From contig CM000151.3 in NCBI GenBank assembly GCA_000004695.1, forward strand, positions 4,000,001 to 4,064,000: a stretch of DNA of 64,000 nt. The letters run 5' to 3'. Each line of letters starts with the position of its first letter. The first letter of the stretch is position 1. The position numbers were made by a program, and so were the translations under genes. Below the pieces are notes generated by a model. It did no database searches. It saw nothing but the letters and a program-made list of their open reading frames with translations, and was not told where the DNA came from. Positions 4,221 to 64,000 of the stretch are shown one piece after another. Source of the stretch: Dictyostelium discoideum (Eukaryota).

Positions 4221-6226
4221 TTATTTTTGAACTAAAATTGAAGTACCACCTTTAAATTTAGAATTTTTAAATTGTGGTATTTTATTAACTTCCCAATTGA
4301 TTTTATTTGAAAGGTTTTCATCCAAAATATTTGAAATATCTAATGTGTAGATATCATCTATTGATTCTTTTGTGACATTATTATATCCACCTAAAATGTG
4401 AACTATCCTTTTCGAAGAATCAAAAATTATAGAATTACCATTTATCATCATTGGTTTTGGTAATAAAAGATTTTGTAGACCACCACCACTATCACCATCA
4501 TCATCATCATCATCATCATGATTATTGGTTAAAACTGACCAACTATTATCTAAAAGATCATATCTTTGAATTATTGATAAACATTTATTCTCTTTTGAAT
4601 TGTAACCACCTAAAACGTAAATATAATGTTCTTGATCATCATAGAAAACACCAGCACCATAACAACTGACTGGTAATGGAGATAAGGTAGTAAAACTATC
4701 ATTATCAATATCATAACGTTCAAGTGTATCAACTGATTGTCTAGTTATATTACAACCACCAATTAAATAGATTGAATTATTATCTTCTTTATAAATTGCA
4801 CCCATACTCCAAAGATTTCTTGAAGATGTTGTAGATTTGGATTGCTGTTTTGAAAATTGTTCAGTGATAATATTAAATTTTAAAATTGATGTCGATCTTT
4901 GGGAATCCACCAATTAAATAAATATTTTGTTTACCATCAAATACTGAAACAATGTAAAAATCTACCATTATCTGGAATTTCAATATTACCATTGGCACCA
5001 TTAGCACCATTATTATTATTATTATTATTATTGTTTGTTTCAATAATCTCCCATTGGTCTTCTAATAAATTATATTTTAATATACGAGTTGGTTGTAATG
5101 AGCCACCAAATAGATAAATATGATTCTTTCCATCGAAATTACCAGTGAAATCATTATCCATTATTGATGGTATCGATTGTAATGATCTCCATAAACCTTG
5201 TTTAAAATCAAATTTTTCAATTGAATATTGGTCGAATCCATCCTTACATTTTCCACCAATTGAATAAATACATTTTGTATCTTCTAAATTTGAATTCAAT
5301 CTTTTATATTCCAAAGTTTCAATAATTTTAAATTTTAATTTTCCAAATATTTTTAATTTTTTATTTGATTTCATTTTTAAACTATCACCATTATTATTAT
5401 TCTCACAATTATCAAAATCATCTTTATTATCATTATTATTATTATTATTATTATCATAGTCATCTGTATCATCATTATTATTTGAAAATTCTTGAAATTT
5501 TTTATTTAAATCATCAAAACTTTTAAAACTACTATTTAATATTAAATCTGAAGCCATTGATGAAATTGGTTTTGGTTGTTTAATTATTTTTCTATTGGTT
5601 GTATTATTCTCTTGAAATTCATCTTTCCAATCCCATTCAATATATGATATTGATTCTTTTAAAACTTGTAAATAATCAGTTTGAAATGAAGTTGACTTTT
5701 TTAATGGTGATGTCATTGGATTGTTATTATTATTATTAGTGACCATTAATGATGATGTTGAATAATTTAAAGGTGATGAAGCGAAACCTGATGATGCTGA
5801 TAAATAATTTGATAAATTACCACTATAACTTGTACTATGTGATAATCCACCACCACCACCACCGCTAAATACTACTCCTCCACTACCACCGCCACCACTT
5901 GAATTAATATTAATATCAAATTTTGAAGGTGAATTCATTTTCTTATTTAATTGTTCAATTAACATCATTGATTTATCTCTATTTGATTCAATTTGTTGTT
6001 TATGTGCTTCTAATTCTTCACCTAATTGTTGAAGTAATTCAATCTTTCTATCTGTAAGATAATTTATAATTGTATCGAAATCTTGACAAATCTTTTTCTT
6101 TGTTTCTATAAATGATTCATCACATCTTTCCAAGGTTTGTTCGCTAATATCCTTGTAGATTGATAATTTTTCAATGGTATTTCTCCAATGATCATTTAAA
6201 TTTTTAAATTCTTCATTTTCTATCAT
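4221..6226 (-). CDS. Kelch-repeat (beta-propeller) protein with an N-terminal coiled-coil and Ser/Gly-rich region. Best model: complement(join(4221..4786, 4945..6226)) with a 158-nt intron 4787..4944. Alternatively it is frameshifted or a pseudogene.
   Basis: ATG at 6226. Kelch blades are marked by IYSIGGKC, HIYLFGGS, IYLIGGCN, IYVLGGYN and HILGGYN, with W/Y residues at the expected spacing. ORFs 4937..6226 and 4221..4913 lie in different frames. A GTATTT donor at 4944 and an …ataaag acceptor at 4787 restore a textbook blade, IPDNGRFLHCF|KDNNSIYLIGGCN, and give a total CDS of 1848 nt (divisible by 3). Confidence 0.55.
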
Positions 6227-7290
6227 TCTAAAAATAAATAAATAAATAAATAAAATTTATATATATATATATATATTTCTATTTCTAAAATTTTCGGTTT
6301 AAATATATAATATATATAATTATTAATTGTGTGTTTATTATTTTATTTTTATTATTATTAAAAAAATGTTTTTACAATATTTTATTTTATTTTATTTTAT
6401 TTGAATATTACAATTATTTATTAATCTATAGATTTTTTTTTTTTGTATTTTATAAATATAAAAAATAAGTTAGAGATTAAGCATGGAGGAAAAAAAAAAA
6501 AAAAAAAAAAAGTTGTAAAAAAGCAGTAATCGTGTTTGTCCCAACAATTTTAAAAAAAACAAAAAAACAATAAAAAAAAATCTTTTTTTTTTTTTTTTTG
6601 TTGTTGGGTTTTTTTATATTTTTTTATTTATTTATTTATTTTTTTTTTTTTGAGGATTTTTTAGTATTATTATTATTATTATTTTTTTAATAAATATTTT
6701 TTTAGTTTTCTTTTTTTTTATACTCACTTTTGTTTATTATTTTCTTTTAATTATCATGAATTATTGTTTAATTTTTATTTTATTTTTTATTTTTCTTTTA
6801 TTAAAATTTTTTTTTTTTTTTTATATAATTTTGTGGTTTTTATATTTTTCAAACTGTATTACATATTTTCACCACACAATGCTTATGTTGTATTAAAGTG
6901 TGTGGGGTGTATTTATGTATGATATACGTATGTGAGTGGTAATGAAATTTTTTTGTGGTTATATATAAATATTTCCCATTTAAACCCCATTTTTTAATTT
7001 TTATATATTTTTCTTAATTTAAAAAAAAAAATAATAAAAAAAAAAAAAAAAAAAAAAAAAAATCACCAATGGTGATATGATTATTCTAAAAAAAGCCACA
7101 AATATTTACATAAACACAAAAAATTATTTATTTTTTTTATTTTAAGAAAATCCATTTTTTTTTTTTTTTTTTTTTTTATAAATTAATACACGATTAGAAA
7201 TATTTAAATAGATTTCGATTACTATTAATTTTAATAATTATTAATTTAAATTTTTTAATTTTATTTTAAATATATATATTTAAAAATATT

Positions 7291-12480: not shown

Positions 12481-22919
<10,439 letters not shown>

Positions 22920-47768: not shown

Positions 47769-48905
<1,137 letters not shown>

Positions 48906-49950: not shown

Positions 49951-51858
49951 ATGAAATTTAAATTAATTATTTTTATAATAATAATTTATATTATTAAAAT
50001 TTTAAAAAGTGAAATATTAAATGAATTTGGTTATGGATTAGTAGATGAAAATTTAAAATGTTTATCTTTTATTGGAGATTCAAATAATCAACAATTATGT
50101 AATAATAAATTAATAAATAAACAATTAATATATAGTACAATTAATAAATCAAATCAAATTCAAAGTTTAAAAATGGTTGAACAATCATTTAAACAATTAA
50201 CATTTTTACAAGGAAAATGTTTAAATTTAAATTTTGCTCAATTTGGAATTTGTGATATTTATTTCCCATCGTGTGTTGAAACAAGTTTTGGAATTTCTTT
50301 ACCAAAGAGATTATGTAAATCAGTTTGTAAACAAATTGTTACCGATTGTCCAACACTTGGAGTATCATTAAATTGTTCAGATTCAAATAAATTTCCAACA
50401 ATTGGTACTCTTTACAATTTAACAAAATATGGATATACTGAAAATAATGGATTTTATCAAGTAGAATGTTCAAATCCAACAAATTATTATTATAATGAAA
50501 TAAATTCAACAAATAATCAATTTATTGAAATTTGTCCAAGCCCATTAGTTTTAAGAAATCAGTCTGATTCAAAATATGGAGAAGATAAAGGTTATACATA
50601 TTTATCACCAACAAATTGTGTACTTGGTTGTCCTCAACCATTTTTTAAAAATAATAAATGGGTACAAATGTATAAAATGTCAATAGTTTTATCAACATTA
50701 AGTTTTATTTGTAGTATTTATAATATTATAACATTTGGTTTACTTTCAAAATTAAAAAGTAAATATAATTTATGTATTACCTTTTTTTCAGTGTCAACTG
50801 TTTTAATGAGTTTAATGGATATTGTAACATATGGTATTGGTTATGAAGAATTATTATGTCCTGAATCAGGTAGATATGCCATTCAATCTGATGTTGCATG
50901 TGGAGTTACAGGTGCTTTCTTTCATATTGGTATTACAACTGGTGTTCTATGGTGGACAACAATGTCAATTTGTTTATACTCTGAAGTTAAAAGATTTAAA
51001 ATGATTAGTTTTAGATATATCATAATTTTCAACTCTGTAATTAGTTTAATACTTTTAATAATACCTTTATCTGGACAAGCTTTTATGAGTGGTAATGGAT
51101 CATTGGGATGCTGGATTAGAAAAACTTGGTATGCAAATGGTACTTTCTGGATTCCTTGTGGTATTTCATTATTTATTGGTGCAATTTGTATTGTTTTAGT
51201 AATTTATGAAATTTTTAAAATTTCAAGAAACCTTTCAAAAGATAACAAACCATTAATGTTTCAAATTAGACCATTCCTTTGTGTATTGTTAGTTGGTGGT
51301 TCATTTTTATATTTATTCATTTTTTATTTTAATAATGAAAGAAATCTTGATAAATATAAAGCTGCAATTCCAAGTTATGTTCAATGTTTATTATCATCCG
51401 ATGAAAATGGTGAAGATTGTTTAACTGATGGCCCTGGATTTGGAGCTTATTTTACCTTTTATTTCTTTACTAGATTATTTGGTATCACTTCTTTTTCTAT
51501 TTATGGTACTTCAAAAATTGCAAGAGATATCTGGTTTGAATCAGCTTATAATCATCCATTCTTTAATCCTTATATTGTTAAATGTTTATCTTTACTTGGT
51601 ATTAGTAAACATTTCAGTTCAAATAGTATTAGTGGTTCAAACCAAAAAAGATTTAATCGTAATGGAAGTAATTTCAATATGAAACAAAATAAATCAAATC
51701 CTAATGATTCAATTTCCCTATCAGTGGTTGAATCAACGAAAAAACAAGATACTGAAAATGAATTAGAAAGTAACATAGAAACAAAAGAAAATCGTAGTAC
51801 TGATATTAGTATTGAAAATACTACTTCCTCAAAAGATTCAAATACTAATAGTTTTTAA
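49951..51858 (+). CDS. Frizzled/smoothened-like (fsl family) receptor: signal peptide, Frizzled-type cysteine-rich domain, 7 TM helices, S/N-rich C-terminal tail; 635 aa.
   Basis: Signal/TM start MKFKLIIFIIIIYIIKILKS. The CRD Cys pattern is C-x7-C…CLNLNFAQFGICDIYFPSCV…LPKRLCKSVCKQIVTDCPTLGVSLNC. At least 7 hydrophobic segments are present (MSIVLSTLSFICSIYNIITFGLL; ITFFSVSTVLMSLMDIVTYGI; GVLWWTTMSICLY; IIIFNSVISLILLIIPL; FWIPCGISLFIGAICIVLVIY; FLCVLLVGGSFLYLFIFYF; YFTFYFFTRLFGITSFSIYG). Single exon. Confidence 0.75.
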   Translation: MKFKLIIFIIIIYIIKILKSEILNEFGYGLVDENLKCLSFIGDSNNQQLCNNKLINKQLIYSTINKSNQIQSLKMVEQSFKQLTFLQGKCLNLNFAQFGICDIYFPSCVETSFGISLPKRLCKSVCKQIVTDCPTLGVSLNCSDSNKFPTIGTLYNLTKYGYTENNGFYQVECSNPTNYYYNEINSTNNQFIEICPSPLVLRNQSDSKYGEDKGYTYLSPTNCVLGCPQPFFKNNKWVQMYKMSIVLSTLSFICSIYNIITFGLLSKLKSKYNLCITFFSVSTVLMSLMDIVTYGIGYEELLCPESGRYAIQSDVACGVTGAFFHIGITTGVLWWTTMSICLYSEVKRFKMISFRYIIIFNSVISLILLIIPLSGQAFMSGNGSLGCWIRKTWYANGTFWIPCGISLFIGAICIVLVIYEIFKISRNLSKDNKPLMFQIRPFLCVLLVGGSFLYLFIFYFNNERNLDKYKAAIPSYVQCLLSSDENGEDCLTDGPGFGAYFTFYFFTRLFGITSFSIYGTSKIARDIWFESAYNHPFFNPYIVKCLSLLGISKHFSSNSISGSNQKRFNRNGSNFNMKQNKSNPNDSISLSVVESTKKQDTENELESNIETKENRSTDISIENTTSSKDSNTNSF

Positions 51859-52061: not shown

Positions 52062-53198
<1,137 letters not shown>

Positions 53199-53682: not shown

Positions 53683-54819
<1,137 letters not shown>

Positions 54820-55909: not shown

Positions 55910-57046
<1,137 letters not shown>

Positions 57047-59891: not shown

Positions 59892-61463
59892 ATGTTATTA
59901 AAAATTTTAATTATTTATTTCATTTTTTTAAATTGGTTTGTTTTATCATTGGGACAATTAAAAAATTATAATGATAATTCAATTACATTAATAGTTGATC
60001 CATTTTCAAACAAAAATATAAACTTTTATAAAAGTGGAGAAAAATGTGGAGATACTCATAACAGATGTAAATCAATTAATGATGCAATTTTATATTTCAA
60101 TACCATCGCAATTGCAACCCCAAATAATAATAAATTAAGTTATCAACAATTAAATTTACAATTAGCAGATGGAATTTACTCAACTACAGAATATTCTTTT
60201 AATTTATTTGAATTTAATATAAATATAGAACCATTTAATAAAAATTCAAAAAAGGTAGTATTTGATGGTAGTAATAGTAGTAATAAAAATAATAATAATA
60301 ATGCATTATTTTATGTTGAACCAGTTTCAAATACTACCTCATTACCATTTAAAAAAAGAACAATTAATTCAGCCACCACTAGTATATTATCAAGTATATC
60401 AATTTCAGATATTACATTCATTTCATTCTCAAATACAATAATTAAAATTGATAATAGAAATGATGATAGTTATAATATAATTAATATAAATAATTGTGTT
60501 TTTAAAAATTTTACATCATCACCTCAAAAAATTGAAAAATATGGTTCACCAATTATTTATTTACAATCATCATCATCACCATCATCATTTTTAGAACAAA
60601 ACCAAACACAAAAACAACAATTAAATATTAATAACTCAGTTTTTAAATCTTCAAATTTATTTACGTCATTATGGAAAACTAGATTAATTCATATTGAAAA
60701 TACAAAATCATTAATGAATAATAATGTTTTTCATAATTTAAATGGTTTGAAAAGTTTATCAAATTTGATTTATTCAAGATTTAATTCAGATATTACAATT
60801 AATTCAAATCAATTTCATGATATAGTTACATATAATGGTTTAATTAATAGTGATAATTCAATGATTAAAATAATTAATTCAAATTTTAGATCAATCATTG
60901 GTAATAATTTTGGTTCAGTATTATATTTTACAACTTCATCAACTTTTCCATCATTTACATTTTTTATTGAAAATTGTAATTTTTGGAATTGCACTTCATT
61001 ATATAGTAGTGGTGTTATAAATGCTGTTGGTATAAATAATAATAATAATGATAATGATAAAAATAAAATAATTGATTGTAGTTTCTTTAATAATAAAGGA
61101 CCTGATTCAAGTATATTATCATGTCAAACAATTGATATAACAATTCAATATTCAAAATTAATATCAACCAATTCTCATGGTGGTACATTTTTAATTTACA
61201 CTTCAAATTTATTTGTTCAAAATAATTATATCCAAGATGAGATTAATGATGATTCAATCGTTGATTCTGGTAGAATTCAAACAATGGGTAAAGCAAATTT
61301 AACAATGTCTTCAAATAATTTTGGTAATGATTTAAATCATAAATTTAAATTTTCTTGTGATGATTCAATAATTAATTTACAAAATAGTCAAGATTTAATA
61401 CCATCATTTATTTGTAATCAATGTTTAGATTTTACAATTAATAATAATAATTCAATTTGTTAA
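59892..61463 (+). CDS. Secreted protein with a signal peptide and parallel beta-helix-like repeats (pectin-lyase-fold-like), 523 aa.
   Basis: The N-terminus MLLKILIIYFIFLNWFVLSLG is hydrophobic. Short N/S/I-rich ~22–25-aa units recur (NCVFKNF…, NSVFKSS…, NNVFHNL…, NSNFRSI…, NCNFWNC…, DCSFFNN…). Single open ORF; the family call is tentative. Confidence 0.55.
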   Translation: MLLKILIIYFIFLNWFVLSLGQLKNYNDNSITLIVDPFSNKNINFYKSGEKCGDTHNRCKSINDAILYFNTIAIATPNNNKLSYQQLNLQLADGIYSTTEYSFNLFEFNINIEPFNKNSKKVVFDGSNSSNKNNNNNALFYVEPVSNTTSLPFKKRTINSATTSILSSISISDITFISFSNTIIKIDNRNDDSYNIININNCVFKNFTSSPQKIEKYGSPIIYLQSSSSPSSFLEQNQTQKQQLNINNSVFKSSNLFTSLWKTRLIHIENTKSLMNNNVFHNLNGLKSLSNLIYSRFNSDITINSNQFHDIVTYNGLINSDNSMIKIINSNFRSIIGNNFGSVLYFTTSSTFPSFTFFIENCNFWNCTSLYSSGVINAVGINNNNNDNDKNKIIDCSFFNNKGPDSSILSCQTIDITIQYSKLISTNSHGGTFLIYTSNLFVQNNYIQDEINDDSIVDSGRIQTMGKANLTMSSNNFGNDLNHKFKFSCDDSIINLQNSQDLIPSFICNQCLDFTINNNNSIC

Positions 61464-61567: not shown

Positions 61568-62080
61568 CTATTTGTAAGCATTGAGAGTTCCAGTTTCAAT
61601 TACACTAATTACTCTATTTGAACGATTTGGAGTTTGATGATTCCAAGTTGAGTTTTTCATTTCTTTTGCTGCTTCAGCCCACTTTTTTTCTTCAATTAAT
61701 TTTAATGACATTTTAAAAGTTAAAACATTGTTTACACCCATTTGGAAAACCATATTGATTATAGCCATTTTACGAATATTATCTAAATTTTTATAAATTG
61801 TTGATAATGTTGGATTACTCTCAATTGATTTTGTGGCTACAGATAAATCCTTTTCAAATAAAGCTTCTGATTCTGAACTTGTAATTATTGGTTCATTTTT
61901 TGAATCCATTTTTACCTTATGACCAATTTTTTCTTCAAGGGATAAGATAGCAGCATTTCTTTCTTTAATTCTTGTAATTAAATGACCAATTCCAATTGTA
62001 TAATAACCTTCAGTATCTTTATACATTTCTAACTTTTCACCCTCATCATATTTTAACATATCTTTTATTGAAGAAACCAT
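61568..62080 (-). CDS. Phage-T4-type lysozyme (GH24), copy 1, 170 aa.
   Basis: Near-colinear with T4 lysozyme as remembered: [37 protein letters not shown] ~ [46 protein letters not shown] ~ [17 protein letters not shown]…[28 protein letters not shown] ~ RWDEAA…[28 protein letters not shown]. The catalytic Glu (in YDEGEKL), Asp (in YKDTEG) and Thr (in YTIGIGH) are present. Confidence 0.9.
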   Translation of the reverse strand: [170 protein letters not shown]

Positions 62081-62692
62081 TCTTTTTTAAAATTATTTAA
62101 TTAAAAAATATATTTTAATTGAATAATGGATTATATATATTTTTTTTTAATTTAAATAGGGAAAAAAAAAAATATATTATTTAAAAAAATAAGTTATTAA
62201 TTGAATTTTTAAGTAATTTATTATTATAAATGAATTATTTTTAAATTCATTTAATTGAATTATAAAAATTACAAATTTAAATTTTTTGCACCCACCCTTA
62301 ATTATAGTATTTTTAAATGCTGAATATTGTTTGTGTTATTAATGAATAATTGAATATAATAATTAAAATTGAATAATTATATTTTTTTTTTTTTTTTTTT
62401 TTCAAAAAAAAAAAAAAAAAAAAAAAAAATAAAAACAATATATTTAAATTTAAAATAAAATATTCCAATATTTATTTCTATTATATAAAAAAAATGAAAA
62501 AAAAAAAATTTAATAATTTGTTCAATAAAATATTGTATTTCCTCTGTAAATAATTATTTATTTATCTTTTTCATAAAATTAATTTTTTTTTTTTTTTTTT
62601 TTATTTTTCTTATAGAATTCTCCAAGTATAGGCTATTTACAGTTGAACCGATTATTTATTTATTAATATTAAACAAGTGTACCAGTTGTGAT

Positions 62693-63205
62693 CTATTTGT
62701 ATTCTTTGAGAGTTCCAGTTTCAAATACACTAATTACTCTATTTGAACGTTTTGGAGTTTGAGTATTCCAAGTTGAATTTTTTAATTCTATAGCAGCTTC
62801 AGCCCACTTTTTTTCTTCAATTAATTTAAGAGATTTTTTAAATTTTGAAACATTGCTAGCACCCATTTGAAAAACCATATTTGCCAAAGCCATCTTACGA
62901 TTTGAGTCCAAATTATTATAAATTGTTGATAGGGTTGAACTATTTTCAATGGAATTAATGGCAACTGATTTATCTTTTTCAAATAAACTCTCTGATTCTG
63001 AACTTGAAATTTCTGGTTCTTTTTTTGAATTCAATTTAACCGTATGGCCAATTTCACCTTCAAGAATTTTGATTGCTTCATTTTTATCTTTATTTTTGGT
63101 AATTAAATGTCCAATTCCAATAGTATAATTACCTTCAGTATCTTTATACATTTCTAACTTTTCACCTTCATCATACTTTAACATATCTTTTAATGAAGAA
63201 ACCAT
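62693..63205 (-). CDS. Phage-T4-type lysozyme (GH24), copy 2, 170 aa, a tandem paralogue of copy 1.
   Basis: [37 protein letters not shown]…[11 protein letters not shown]…[28 protein letters not shown]. The same catalytic residues are present. The 3' coding ends of the two copies are nearly identical at nucleotide level (…gagagttccagtttcaa[a/t]tacactaattactctatttgaacg[a/t]tttggagtttga…). Confidence 0.9.
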   Translation of the reverse strand: [170 protein letters not shown]

Positions 63206-63390
63206 TATTTTTTATTTATTTTTTTTATTTAAAATTTATTTATTTATATATATATATATAATTATTTAATTATTTCCAATTGTATGTGTGTATGTGTGTA
63301 ATATATTTTTTTTTTTTTCAATCCTATTAAATAATAACCCCACAAAAAAAATAAAAAATAAAAAAATTAAAAATAAAATAAAATTAAATT

Positions 63391-63625
63391 GTAAATAGTA
63401 CAATTTAAGTGAATATAATAAACAACTTATTTTTTTAAGAATAAATTAAACAAATATAGAAATTTAATTCTTTTTCAAATTATTAAACTTTTTTTTTTTT
63501 TTTTTTTTATTTTAATAGTACAATTTAAGTAATTATAATAAACAACTTATTTTTTTAAGAATAAATTAAACAAATATAGAAATTTAATTCTTTTTCAAAT
63601 TATTAAACTTTTTTTTCTTTTTATT
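63391..63625. repeat. Tandem direct repeat, two ~121-bp units (…tagtacaatttaagtg/aattataataaacaacttatttttttaagaataaattaaacaaatatagaaatttaattctttttcaaattattaaactttttttt…). It lies in the promoter region of lysozyme copy 2 and the 3' flank of the edge gene.
   Basis: 63397–63497 and 63517–63620 align by eye with ~3 mismatches. A third partial match (ttttaattctttttcaaaagt) lies at 63661–63681. Confidence 0.8.
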
Positions 63626-63638
63626 TTTTTTTTTTATT

Positions 63639-64000
63639 TTAAGTAAAAGAAACTTTTAATTTTAATTCTTTTTCAAAAGTATCAAAGAATATATTCGAAT
63701 ATTTTTTAAAATGTGATTCTATTAAATCTCTATTTGATTTTAATTGATCAAATGTACAAAAATAACTAAAGATAACTCTATTATTTTCAGATTGATAGCC
63801 TATATCCATAATTTCATCGATTTGTGAATCTTGACTATCATTACCACTATTGACATTCTCTTTTAAAGTGAATGGATAATCTAATAATTTTGAGAGTTGA
63901 TTTTCTTTTAAATATAATTCAATTGAACCATTTGATAATGTCGATGAACTAATCAATTGAATAAACTCTTGATTGTATAATGGATGAAGCTTATTATAAA
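63639..64000 (-). CDS. 3' end of a gene that continues beyond the right window edge (C-terminal ≥120 aa; no family recognised).
   Basis: The minus-strand ORF is open from the window edge (…LHPLYNQEFIQLISSSTLSNGSIELYLKENQLSKLLDYPFTLKENVNSGNDSQDSQIDEIMDIGYQSENNRVIFSYF…KVSFT*) to the stop at 63639. Confidence 0.4.
   Translation of the reverse strand, partial: YNKLHPLYNQEFIQLISSSTLSNGSIELYLKENQLSKLLDYPFTLKENVNSGNDSQDSQIDEIMDIGYQSENNRVIFSYFCTFDQLKSNRDLIESHFKKYSNIFFDTFEKELKLKVSFT

What the first reader, a model, noticed from the sequence alone, without database searches (positions are those of the whole stretch)
61568..63205. Tandem pair of intact phage-T4-type lysozymes in an amoeba
Both 170-aa proteins are colinear with T4 gene e lysozyme, including the 14-residue identity [15 protein letters not shown] and the catalytic Glu/Asp/Thr. 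This is a bacteriophage fold, most plausibly acquired horizontally and duplicated, and is consistent with a bacterivore's digestive arsenal. Neither copy has an obvious signal peptide (MVSS[I/L][10 protein letters not shown] starts directly in the catalytic helix), so targeting to phagosomes would need another route. Copy 2 has a 121-bp tandem-duplicated promoter segment.
Basis: partly seen in the sequence, partly recalled or inferred. Interest (0 to 1): 0.6.

Follow-up and report, generated by a model that had tools for sequence, protein, structure and literature searches.

The report
Known Dictyostelium phage-type lysozyme gene pair
The two genes are the already annotated T4-phage-type lysozymes lyT4-1 and lyT4-2 of the social amoeba Dictyostelium discoideum, so the reading is right but the finding is not new.

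Summary
Two intact, intron-less 170-aa ORFs lie head-to-tail on the minus strand (61568-62080 and 62693-63205). They are 76% identical to each other and 47%/45% identical to T4 gene e lysozyme over the full length. The catalytic Glu/Asp/Thr are present, and the predicted fold matches T4 lysozyme (TM 0.92-0.97).

Both proteins are exact matches to UniProt LYST1_DICDI and LYST2_DICDI, "Probable T4-type lysozyme 1/2" (DDB_G0274831 and DDB_G0274291) of D. discoideum AX4. They are annotated as GH24 and cited in the literature as lyT4 genes, so this is already known.

What I could add:
- Homologues turned up only in D. discoideum, D. cf. discoideum, D. citrinum, D. firmibasis and D. dimigraforme, always at the same locus.
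- They form one clade (100% bootstrap) among T4-like phage endolysins, which fits a single, fairly recent transfer.
- The duplication is younger than the transfer. lyT4-1 is a pseudogene in one wild D. discoideum assembly and absent from one D. citrinum assembly.
- No signal peptide and no upstream exon.
- Published proteomes show LyT4-2 absent from vegetative axenic cells and abundant from aggregation to culmination. A purely digestive role is therefore too simple.
- The 120-nt (not 121-nt) tandem repeat starts 6 nt after the upstream gene's stop, so calling it a promoter duplication is unproven.

The parts
61568..62080 (-). lyT4-1 coding sequence (DDB_G0274831, UniProt Q556F2, Probable T4-type lysozyme 1). 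170 aa, no intron.
   Evidence: ORF. Exact sequence match. Pfam PF00959. 47% identity to T4 lysozyme. Gene ID from PMC12821622 supplement. GC 27%, GC3 16%.
62693..63205 (-). lyT4-2 coding sequence (DDB_G0274291, UniProt Q86AA1, Probable T4-type lysozyme 2). 170 aa, no intron. This is the conserved and more strongly expressed paralogue.
   Evidence: ORF. Exact match. Pfam. 45% identity to T4 lysozyme. Present in all seven assemblies examined. Protein abundance.
62081..62692 (-). Intergenic region of 612 bp (11% GC). It should hold the 3' end of lyT4-2 and the promoter of lyT4-1, and contains a T-run, one C, then an A-run of about 32 at roughly 62376-62435.
   Evidence: Sequence. Composition. 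A-run. No similarity to the region upstream of lyT4-2 beyond low complexity.
63206..63638 (-). Intergenic region of 433 bp (10% GC) between the stop of the upstream same-strand gene and the lyT4-2 ATG. A TATA-like motif lies 43 nt before the ATG.
63394..63636 (.). Tandem duplication of a 120-nt unit (2.0 copies, 115/120 identical). It begins 6 nt after the upstream gene's stop codon and ends 189 nt before the lyT4-2 ATG.
   Evidence: Two copies are also present in a wild D. discoideum assembly (L004:5546-5799). One copy is present in D. cf. discoideum (L005:4648-4769). None is recognisable in D. citrinum.
63639..64000 (-). 3' part of the upstream neighbouring gene, cut by the window end. Its orthologues are 241-285 aa with no Pfam family.
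   Evidence: ORF. No Pfam hit. Syntenic genes.
59892..61463 (+). Convergent neighbour of 523 aa with a clear N-terminal signal peptide. It is context only, not part of the lysozyme unit. It is probably DDB_G0274289, inferred from adjacent gene numbering.
   Evidence: ORF. No Pfam hit. Hydropathy 2.7 at residues 2-11. Syntenic 510-536 aa genes. Name.

Best explanation
These are lyT4-1 and lyT4-2 of Dictyostelium discoideum AX4 (chromosome 2). Each encodes a stand-alone GH24 muramidase of the phage T4 gene e type.

Mechanism (inferred). Glu13, Asp22 and Thr28 correspond to T4 Glu11, Asp20 and Thr26. By homology, the enzymes should cut the MurNAc-beta-1,4-GlcNAc bond of peptidoglycan by the inverting mechanism established for T4 lysozyme.

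Origin (shown by distribution and tree). One gene was captured from a T4-like phage of enterobacteria, or from a bacterial copy of such a gene. This happened in the ancestor of the D. discoideum / citrinum / firmibasis / dimigraforme lineage. Its composition has since converged on that of the host.

Later history (shown). The gene duplicated in tandem before D. discoideum and D. citrinum split. lyT4-2 is kept everywhere. lyT4-1 is dispensable: it is a pseudogene in one assembly and absent from another.

Targeting (unknown). The proteins keep the leaderless architecture of a canonical phage endolysin. They cannot enter the secretory pathway in the classical way, and how they reach peptidoglycan is not known.

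Expression (from papers). lyT4-2 is induced by E. coli at the mRNA level. Its protein accumulates from aggregation to culmination. The most likely role is antibacterial clearing of Gram-negative prey or contaminants around and during development, not bulk digestion in growing cells.
For: Identity:
- Exact matches to LYST1_DICDI and LYST2_DICDI, annotated 'glycoside hydrolase family 24 protein'.

Family:
- PF00959 above its cut-off. T4 lysozyme chains at E = 1e-46. 47% and 45% identity over the full length.
- E13, D22 and R153 are invariant in a 32-sequence alignment, and T28 is nearly so.
- AlphaFold model at pLDDT 96.1, matching T4 lysozyme at TM 0.92-0.97 and rmsd about 1.1 A.

Origin:
- 1649 phage records match, all below 60% identity. 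The best hits are T4-like phages of Cronobacter, Erwinia, Klebsiella and Citrobacter.
- The closest metagenomic relative, P0010 (51%), sits on a 108-kb contig alongside genes with Pfam hits named ValRS_modifier and Antiholin, families that T4-type phages carry.
- An exhaustive HMMER search of 1.84 billion representatives gives one Dictyostelium cluster, followed by T4 lysozyme constructs and phage proteins. The named members of the next clusters are phage or Klebsiella.
- A Dictyostelium-only profile recovers only five closely related Dictyostelium taxa before phage and enterobacterial hits.
- Neighbour-joining tree: Dictyostelium clade 100%, lyT4-1 clade 100%, lyT4-2 clade 78%.

Not contamination:
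- The same gene neighbourhood appears in seven assemblies: an unnamed gene of about 240-285 aa, the lysozyme(s), a secreted protein of 510-536 aa, a CTLH/RING gene, then actin.
- GC3 of 0.16 is like the neighbouring genes.

Selection:
- Pairwise dN/dS is 0.14-0.61.

Expression:
- lyT4-2 mRNA is up 2-5 fold on E. coli (PMC2443395).
- LyT4-2 protein is up in 5-h developed cells (PMC6830349 Table 1).
- In the life-cycle proteome it is not detected in vegetative cells. It reads 3.5e7 to 9.7e7 from aggregation to culmination and about 2e5 in fruiting bodies. LyT4-1 is at trace level only (PMC12821622).
Against: - Muramidase activity has never been shown for either protein, as far as the searchable literature goes. 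UniProt calls them 'probable'.
- A leaderless enzyme has no evident route to phagosomal or extracellular peptidoglycan.
- Absence from other dictyostelids rests on protein databases. The word-indexed search missed the 63%-identical D. firmibasis protein the first time. I could not search the D. purpureum genome or other eukaryotic genomes directly.
- The sister group among phage and bacterial sequences is unresolved, with bootstrap 6-18%, so the donor is not identified.
- The tree is neighbour-joining only.
- The lyT4-1 pseudogene call depends on a single assembly.
Confidence: 0.85

Rival explanations
1. The enzymes are not digestive at all. As leaderless cytosolic proteins made mainly during development, they would act inside the cytoplasm. 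They could attack bacteria that escape the phagosome, or process peptidoglycan fragments. Alternatively they could reach lysosomes by starvation-induced autophagy, or the outside by unconventional secretion.
For: - No signal peptide, no hydrophobic segment and no upstream exon.
- The protein is undetected in vegetative axenic cells but abundant from aggregation to culmination, and up at 5 h of development.
Against: - lyT4-2 mRNA is induced by exposure to E. coli, which fits a feeding role.
- Vegetative cells in the proteome studies were grown without bacteria, so absence there does not exclude induction by prey.
- No localisation data were found. The one phagosome proteome I tried has no supplementary files held.
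Confidence: 0.3
2. The genes are relics drifting toward loss. They would be a neutral leftover of a chance transfer with no present function, at least for lyT4-1.
For: - lyT4-1 carries a nonsense codon plus a frameshift in wild D. discoideum assembly GCA_054859385.1.
- lyT4-1 is absent from D. citrinum GCA_054859325.1.
- LyT4-1 protein is at trace level only.
Against: - dN/dS is well below 1 for both paralogues, 0.14-0.25 between lyT4-1 orthologues.
- The catalytic and core residues are conserved in the Dictyostelium sequences: Glu and Asp are invariant, and the third site is Thr or, in D. citrinum, Ser.
- lyT4-2 is intact in all seven assemblies, and its protein is abundant and regulated.
Confidence: 0.08
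3. The family is an old eukaryotic or amoebozoan lysozyme inherited vertically and lost elsewhere, and the phage similarity reflects transfer in the other direction or deep common ancestry.
For: None found. The only opening is that eukaryotic genomes could not be searched at the DNA level.
Against: - 45-51% identity to T4-like phage endolysins over the full length.
- Thousands of phage and bacterial homologues against one tight Dictyostelium clade.
- No hit from D. purpureum or any other eukaryote.
- No introns.
Confidence: 0.03
4. The sequences are phage or bacterial contamination in the assembly, or the annotated start is wrong and a hidden upstream exon supplies a signal peptide.
For: Dictyostelium is grown on Klebsiella/Enterobacter, the hosts of the closest phages (my own knowledge).
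Against: - The genes are embedded between eukaryotic genes (actin, CTLH/RING) with conserved synteny in seven independent assemblies of five taxa.
- Codon composition matches the host.
- The protein has been detected by mass spectrometry in Dictyostelium.
- Stops lie 2-3 codons upstream of both ATGs. An AG directly before the ATG exists only in copy 1. The upstream DNA is 10-11% GC, with no sequence conserved between the two copies.
Confidence: 0.02

Closest known systems
Bacteriophage T4 gene e endolysin (T4 lysozyme, GH24)
   Same: - Same length class and colinear from residue 3 to the C-terminus, at 45-47% identity.
- Catalytic Glu/Asp/Thr present. The residues that in T4 lysozyme form the His31-Asp70 pair and Arg145 (my own knowledge of the enzyme) are also conserved in the alignment.
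- Same predicted two-lobe fold (TM 0.92-0.97).
- No signal peptide.

   Different: - Encoded in a eukaryotic nuclear genome with host-like codon usage.
- Two extra residues at the N-terminus.
- A 6-residue Lys/Glu-rich insertion after T4 residue ~53, predicted to form a small beta-hairpin at residues 57-65.
- Lower pI: 8.6 against 9.6.
- No holin partner is evident nearby.
Bivalve co-opted phage-type GH24 lysozymes (Ren et al. 2017, PMC5303276)
   Same: Phage GH24 genes taken up by a eukaryote, then duplicated, and proposed to be used against bacteria.
   Different: The bivalve genes gained introns and fused with other genes, and the transfer is dated to hundreds of millions of years ago. The Dictyostelium genes are intron-less, unfused, and confined to a few sibling species. 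I did not test whether the two acquisitions share a donor lineage.
Other Dictyostelium lysozyme families (Aly, C-type LyC, Entamoeba-type)
   Same: They belong to the same organism's set of at least 15 predicted lysozyme genes, and are regulated by bacterial food.
   Different: The families are unrelated. AlyA has been purified and shown to be active, whereas the T4-type proteins are uncharacterised. In Sillo et al. the aly genes go down on E. coli while lyT4-2 goes up.
T4 gp5 baseplate hub / tail lysozyme
   Same: It contains a homologous GH24 lysozyme domain. Such proteins of 560-760 aa match at 35-41% identity.
   Different: gp5-type proteins carry additional N- and C-terminal domains and were used as the outgroup of the tree. 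The Dictyostelium proteins are stand-alone and group with e-type endolysins.

Membership tests
GH24 / Pfam PF00959 Phage_lysozyme | Profile match above the curated gathering score | tested here: met
   48.9 and 44.4 bits against a cut-off of 22.3.
GH24, T4 gene e subtype | Full-length colinearity with T4 lysozyme as a stand-alone protein of about 160-170 aa | tested here: met
   Residues 5-170 align to T4 residues 3-162 at E = 1e-46, with 47% and 45% identity and one 6-residue insertion.
GH24, T4 gene e subtype | Catalytic Glu11, Asp20 and Thr26 equivalents | tested here: met
   E13, D22 and T28 are present in both window proteins. E and D are invariant, and T is at least 90% conserved in 32 sequences. 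D. citrinum has Ser at the Thr site.
GH24, T4 gene e subtype | Two-lobe alpha/beta lysozyme fold | tested here: met
   AlphaFold2 model at pLDDT 96.1 and pTM 0.88. Foldseek against the PDB gives T4 lysozyme at TM 0.92-0.97 and rmsd 1.0-1.5 A. This is a prediction, not a solved structure.
GH24, T4 gene e subtype | Muramidase activity on peptidoglycan | not testable with these tools
   No biochemical report was found in five literature searches. UniProt labels the proteins 'probable'.
Canonical (holin-dependent) endolysin architecture | No signal peptide or signal-anchor-release segment | tested here: met
   The maximum 10-residue hydropathy in the first 35 aa is 0.3-0.5. No hydrophobic stretch above 1.3 occurs anywhere. 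The same short MVS/MVT start without a leader is seen in all 11 Dictyostelium sequences.
Canonical (holin-dependent) endolysin architecture | A partner holin gene | tested here: not met
   Holins are a phage feature, so none is expected in a eukaryotic host. The neighbouring ORFs checked are an unnamed gene cut by the window end, a secreted 523-aa protein, a CTLH/RING protein and actins, and none of them is a holin.
Horizontally acquired gene (phage or bacterium to eukaryote) | Nested within donor-group sequences, patchy distribution in the recipient group, and integrated in host chromosomes | tested here: met
   Monophyletic clade (100%) among phage endolysins. Found in only five sibling Dictyostelium taxa. 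Conserved synteny in seven assemblies. Caveats: neighbour-joining tree only, and no DNA-level search of other eukaryotic genomes.
Bivalve-type co-opted GH24 lysozymes | Shared ancestry with the bivalve clade; intron gain or fusion | not tested
The Dictyostelium genes have neither introns nor fusions.

The most novel reading that the evidence does not exclude
A leaderless phage endolysin was captured only recently, after the D. discoideum group split from D. purpureum. The amoeba now uses it outside the classical secretory route, either in the cytosol or through autophagy or unconventional release. There it would serve as a development-stage antibacterial that protects the aggregating multicellular body, not as a feeding enzyme. 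It would be a young and experimentally tractable case of a phage weapon turned into eukaryotic cell-autonomous immunity. The natural presence/absence variation of the second copy would help such a study.
Probability: 0.25. Interest if true: 0.5.

Novelty: already known. Interest (0 to 1): 0.22.

Why it matters
As it stands, the finding re-identifies two annotated genes of a model organism, so it adds little. The comparative detail gathered here could still seed a small study:
- a transfer confined to a few sibling species;
- a later tandem duplication, with one copy decaying in some isolates;
- no targeting signal;
- a developmental protein profile.

Such a study would ask how a phage endolysin is put to work in a eukaryote that eats the phage's hosts. 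Dictyostelium genetics makes knockouts, tagging and growth or clearance assays straightforward.

Tried and rejected
- Further copies in the window. tblastn with both proteins and T4 lysozyme found none.
- Hidden upstream exon or signal peptide. In-frame stops, no conserved upstream sequence and a uniform N-terminus argue against it.
- Contamination. Rejected on synteny and composition.
- Donor identification. The neighbour-joining tree leaves the sister group unresolved at 6-18% bootstrap. The first bootstrap run with Biopython timed out.
- Literature on the transfer or on enzyme activity. Five searches found only passing mentions. Muller et al. 2005 is not held (one search was a malformed query).
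- Localisation from the phagosome proteome of Boulais et al. No supplementary files are held.
- RNA genes or tRNAs near the locus. None in the whole window.
- Remnants of lyT4-1 in the single-copy assemblies L002, L006 and L007. No blastn or tblastn trace.
- Similarity between the two promoters. Nothing beyond low-complexity A/T runs.
Full report
**What is there.** The window is 22.8% G+C. At the stated coordinates the minus strand carries two uninterrupted 170-codon ORFs, 61568-62080 and 62693-63205. They are 76% identical at the protein level with no gaps. Homology between the two copies covers the coding sequence and about 7 nt beyond the stop, but not the upstream DNA. Both match Pfam PF00959 Phage_lysozyme above the curated cut-off. 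Against all solved structures the best hits are T4 lysozyme chains, E = 1e-46 to 1e-43, aligned from residue 5 to 170.

BLASTP against wild-type T4 lysozyme gives 47% identity for copy 1 and 45% for copy 2. The only gap is a 6-residue insertion after T4 residue ~53. The equivalents of Glu11, Asp20 and Thr26 are E13, D22 and T28 in both copies. An AlphaFold2 model of copy 1 has mean pLDDT 96.1. It superposes on T4 lysozyme with TM 0.92-0.97 and rmsd about 1.1 A. The insertion is predicted to form a small beta-hairpin at residues 57-65.

The identical stretch [15 protein letters not shown] is 15 residues long and is unbroken only in copy 1. The tandem repeat has a period of 120 nt, not 121.

**Identity.** Both proteins are exact, full-length matches to database entries. 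Copy 1 is XP_643993.1 / Q556F2, LYST1_DICDI, "Probable T4-type lysozyme 1". Copy 2 is XP_643994.1 / Q86AA1, LYST2_DICDI, "Probable T4-type lysozyme 2". [quoted passage not shown] The gene identifiers are DDB_G0274831 and DDB_G0274291 (PMC12821622 supplement).

The literature already lists phage-type lysozymes among at least 15 predicted lysozyme genes of this amoeba, citing Muller et al. 2005 (PMC5890168). It also names lyT4-2 as up-regulated 2-5 fold in cells exposed to E. coli, while the aly genes go down (PMC2443395).

**Origin.**
- tblastn against 50,697 phage records gives 1649 matching records, all below 60% identity. The best, at about 49%, are T4-like phages of Cronobacter, Erwinia, Citrobacter, Klebsiella and Salmonella.
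- The nearest metagenomic relative, P0010 (51%), lies on a 108-kb contig. Its neighbours have Pfam hits named ValRS_modifier and Antiholin, families carried by T4-type phages.
- An exhaustive HMMER search of 1.84 billion cluster representatives returns one Dictyostelium cluster at E = 1.6e-58. Synthetic T4 lysozyme fusions follow, then phage endolysins, then the longer gp5-type tail lysozymes.
- The named members of the next clusters are Aeromonas phages and Klebsiella.
- A profile built from Dictyostelium sequences alone ranks ten protein clusters first. They come from D. discoideum, D. cf. discoideum, D. citrinum, D. firmibasis and D. dimigraforme. There is then a drop of 30 orders of magnitude to phage and enterobacterial proteins. 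No D. purpureum or other eukaryotic protein appears.
- In a neighbour-joining tree rooted on gp5-type domains, the Dictyostelium proteins form a clade with 100% bootstrap among e-type endolysins. Their sister group is unresolved.
- T4-type lysozymes at 49% identity also sit on megabase-sized Enterobacter and Klebsiella contigs. The immediate donor could therefore have been a bacterial copy and not a virion.

**Integration and later history.** In seven assemblies of five taxa the gene or genes occupy the same place. An unnamed gene of about 240-285 aa lies upstream. A convergent secreted protein of 510-536 aa lies downstream in most assemblies. A CTLH/RING gene and actin genes follow. Coding G+C (27%) and GC3 (0.16) match the host. 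This rules out contamination.
- D. dimigraforme and D. firmibasis have one copy.
- AX4, D. cf. discoideum and one D. citrinum assembly have the tandem pair.
- The tree places the duplication after D. dimigraforme diverged, which was the only single-copy species included, and before the discoideum/citrinum split (lyT4-1 clade 100%, lyT4-2 clade 78%).
- A second D. citrinum assembly lacks lyT4-1 without trace.
- A wild D. discoideum assembly carries lyT4-1 with an AAA-to-TAA nonsense change at codon 97, a 1-nt insertion and a 3-nt deletion.
- Pairwise dN/dS is 0.14-0.61, so both lineages have been under purifying selection. lyT4-1 is nevertheless evidently dispensable.

**Targeting.** The N-termini are charged (MVSS[I/L][11 protein letters not shown]...). 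The highest 10-residue hydropathy in the first 35 residues is 0.3-0.5, against 2.7 for the signal peptide of the neighbouring 523-aa protein. In-frame stop codons lie two to three codons upstream of both ATGs. An AG directly before the ATG exists only in copy 1. The upstream DNA is 10-11% G+C, with nothing conserved between the copies. All 11 Dictyostelium proteins begin directly with the same short MVS/MVT start, without a leader. The proteins thus keep the leaderless build of a canonical phage endolysin, which in the phage needs a holin. How they meet peptidoglycan in the amoeba remains unexplained.

The life-cycle proteome (PMC12821622) gives, for two replicates:

| Stage | LyT4-2 abundance |
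|---|---|
| Vegetative (axenic) | not detected |
| Aggregation | 3.5e7 / 3.5e7 |
| Mound | 3.5e7 / 5.4e7 |
| Culmination | 9.7e7 / 5.4e7 |
| Fruiting body | about 2e5 |

LyT4-1 appears only at about 1e6 in single samples. This does not fit a simple feeding-enzyme picture. It suggests a role around starvation and multicellular development, when autophagy is high and residual bacteria must be cleared. That last step is inference.

**The repeat.** The 120-nt unit is duplicated at 63394-63636 with 115/120 identical positions. It is also duplicated in the wild D. discoideum assembly, single in D. cf. discoideum and unrecognisable in D. citrinum. The duplication is therefore recent. It begins 6 nt after the stop of the upstream gene on the same strand, each unit starts with an AATAAA, and it ends 189 nt before the lyT4-2 ATG. 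A TATA-like motif lies 43 nt before that ATG, outside the repeat. The repeat could be 3' UTR of the upstream gene, distal promoter of lyT4-2, or both.

**Verdict.** This is a correct reading of an already annotated gene pair. The residual interest lies in the young age of the transfer, the missing targeting signal, the developmental expression and the natural loss of one copy. None of these changes the classification.

Noticed in passing
window 47769-48899(-), 52062-53192(-), 53689-54819(+), 55916-57046(+): Four actin genes of 376 aa each. Their proteins are 100% identical and their DNA 98.7-99.2% identical, which suggests a multi-copy actin cluster kept uniform, presumably by gene conversion.
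   Followed up: partly
window 49951-51858(+): A 635-aa ORF with Fz and Frizzled/Smoothened membrane-region matches sits between the actin genes. A Frizzled-like gene is also near the actins in D. firmibasis.
   Followed up: no
window 12481-22341(-): A single 3286-aa ORF with no Pfam family at E <= 0.001.
   Followed up: no
L004:7131-7645 (wild D. discoideum, GCA_054859385.1): The lyT4-1 orthologue carries a nonsense codon (AAA to TAA at codon 97), a +1 T insertion and a 3-nt deletion, and no gene was called there. This is a likely pseudogene, although it rests on one assembly.
   Followed up: yes
L006:6514-7595 (D. citrinum, GCA_054859325.1): lyT4-1 is absent without any blastn or tblastn trace, while another D. 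citrinum assembly (L001) has the pair. This is presence/absence variation within a species name.
   Followed up: yes
L001:4994-5515 and 6001-6513; L006:6001-6513: All D. citrinum copies have Ser instead of Thr at the position equivalent to the catalytic Thr26 of T4 lysozyme (YYSIGIGH).
   Followed up: no
proteins P0273-P0277, P0284, P0344: T4 gene e-type lysozymes of 155-162 aa, 46-49% identical to the D. firmibasis protein (P0269) where scored. They are annotated in Enterobacter, Serratia and Klebsiella on contigs of 0.7-5.5 Mb. Chromosomal or prophage copies therefore exist in typical Dictyostelium food bacteria.
   Followed up: no
window 59892-61463(+): A 523-aa Asn-rich protein with a clear signal peptide and no Pfam hit. 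It is convergent with lyT4-1, only 104 bp from its stop. It is syntenic in most relatives, but no gene is called at that place in D. firmibasis. [quoted passage not shown]
   Followed up: partly
window 62376-62435: A run of about 27 T, one C, then about 32 A in the spacer between the two lysozyme genes. It forms a perfect A/T hairpin-like inverted repeat, typical of Dictyostelium intergenic DNA.
   Followed up: no
window 1-64000: No tRNA gene and no Rfam family at gathering score in the whole 64-kb window.
   Followed up: yes
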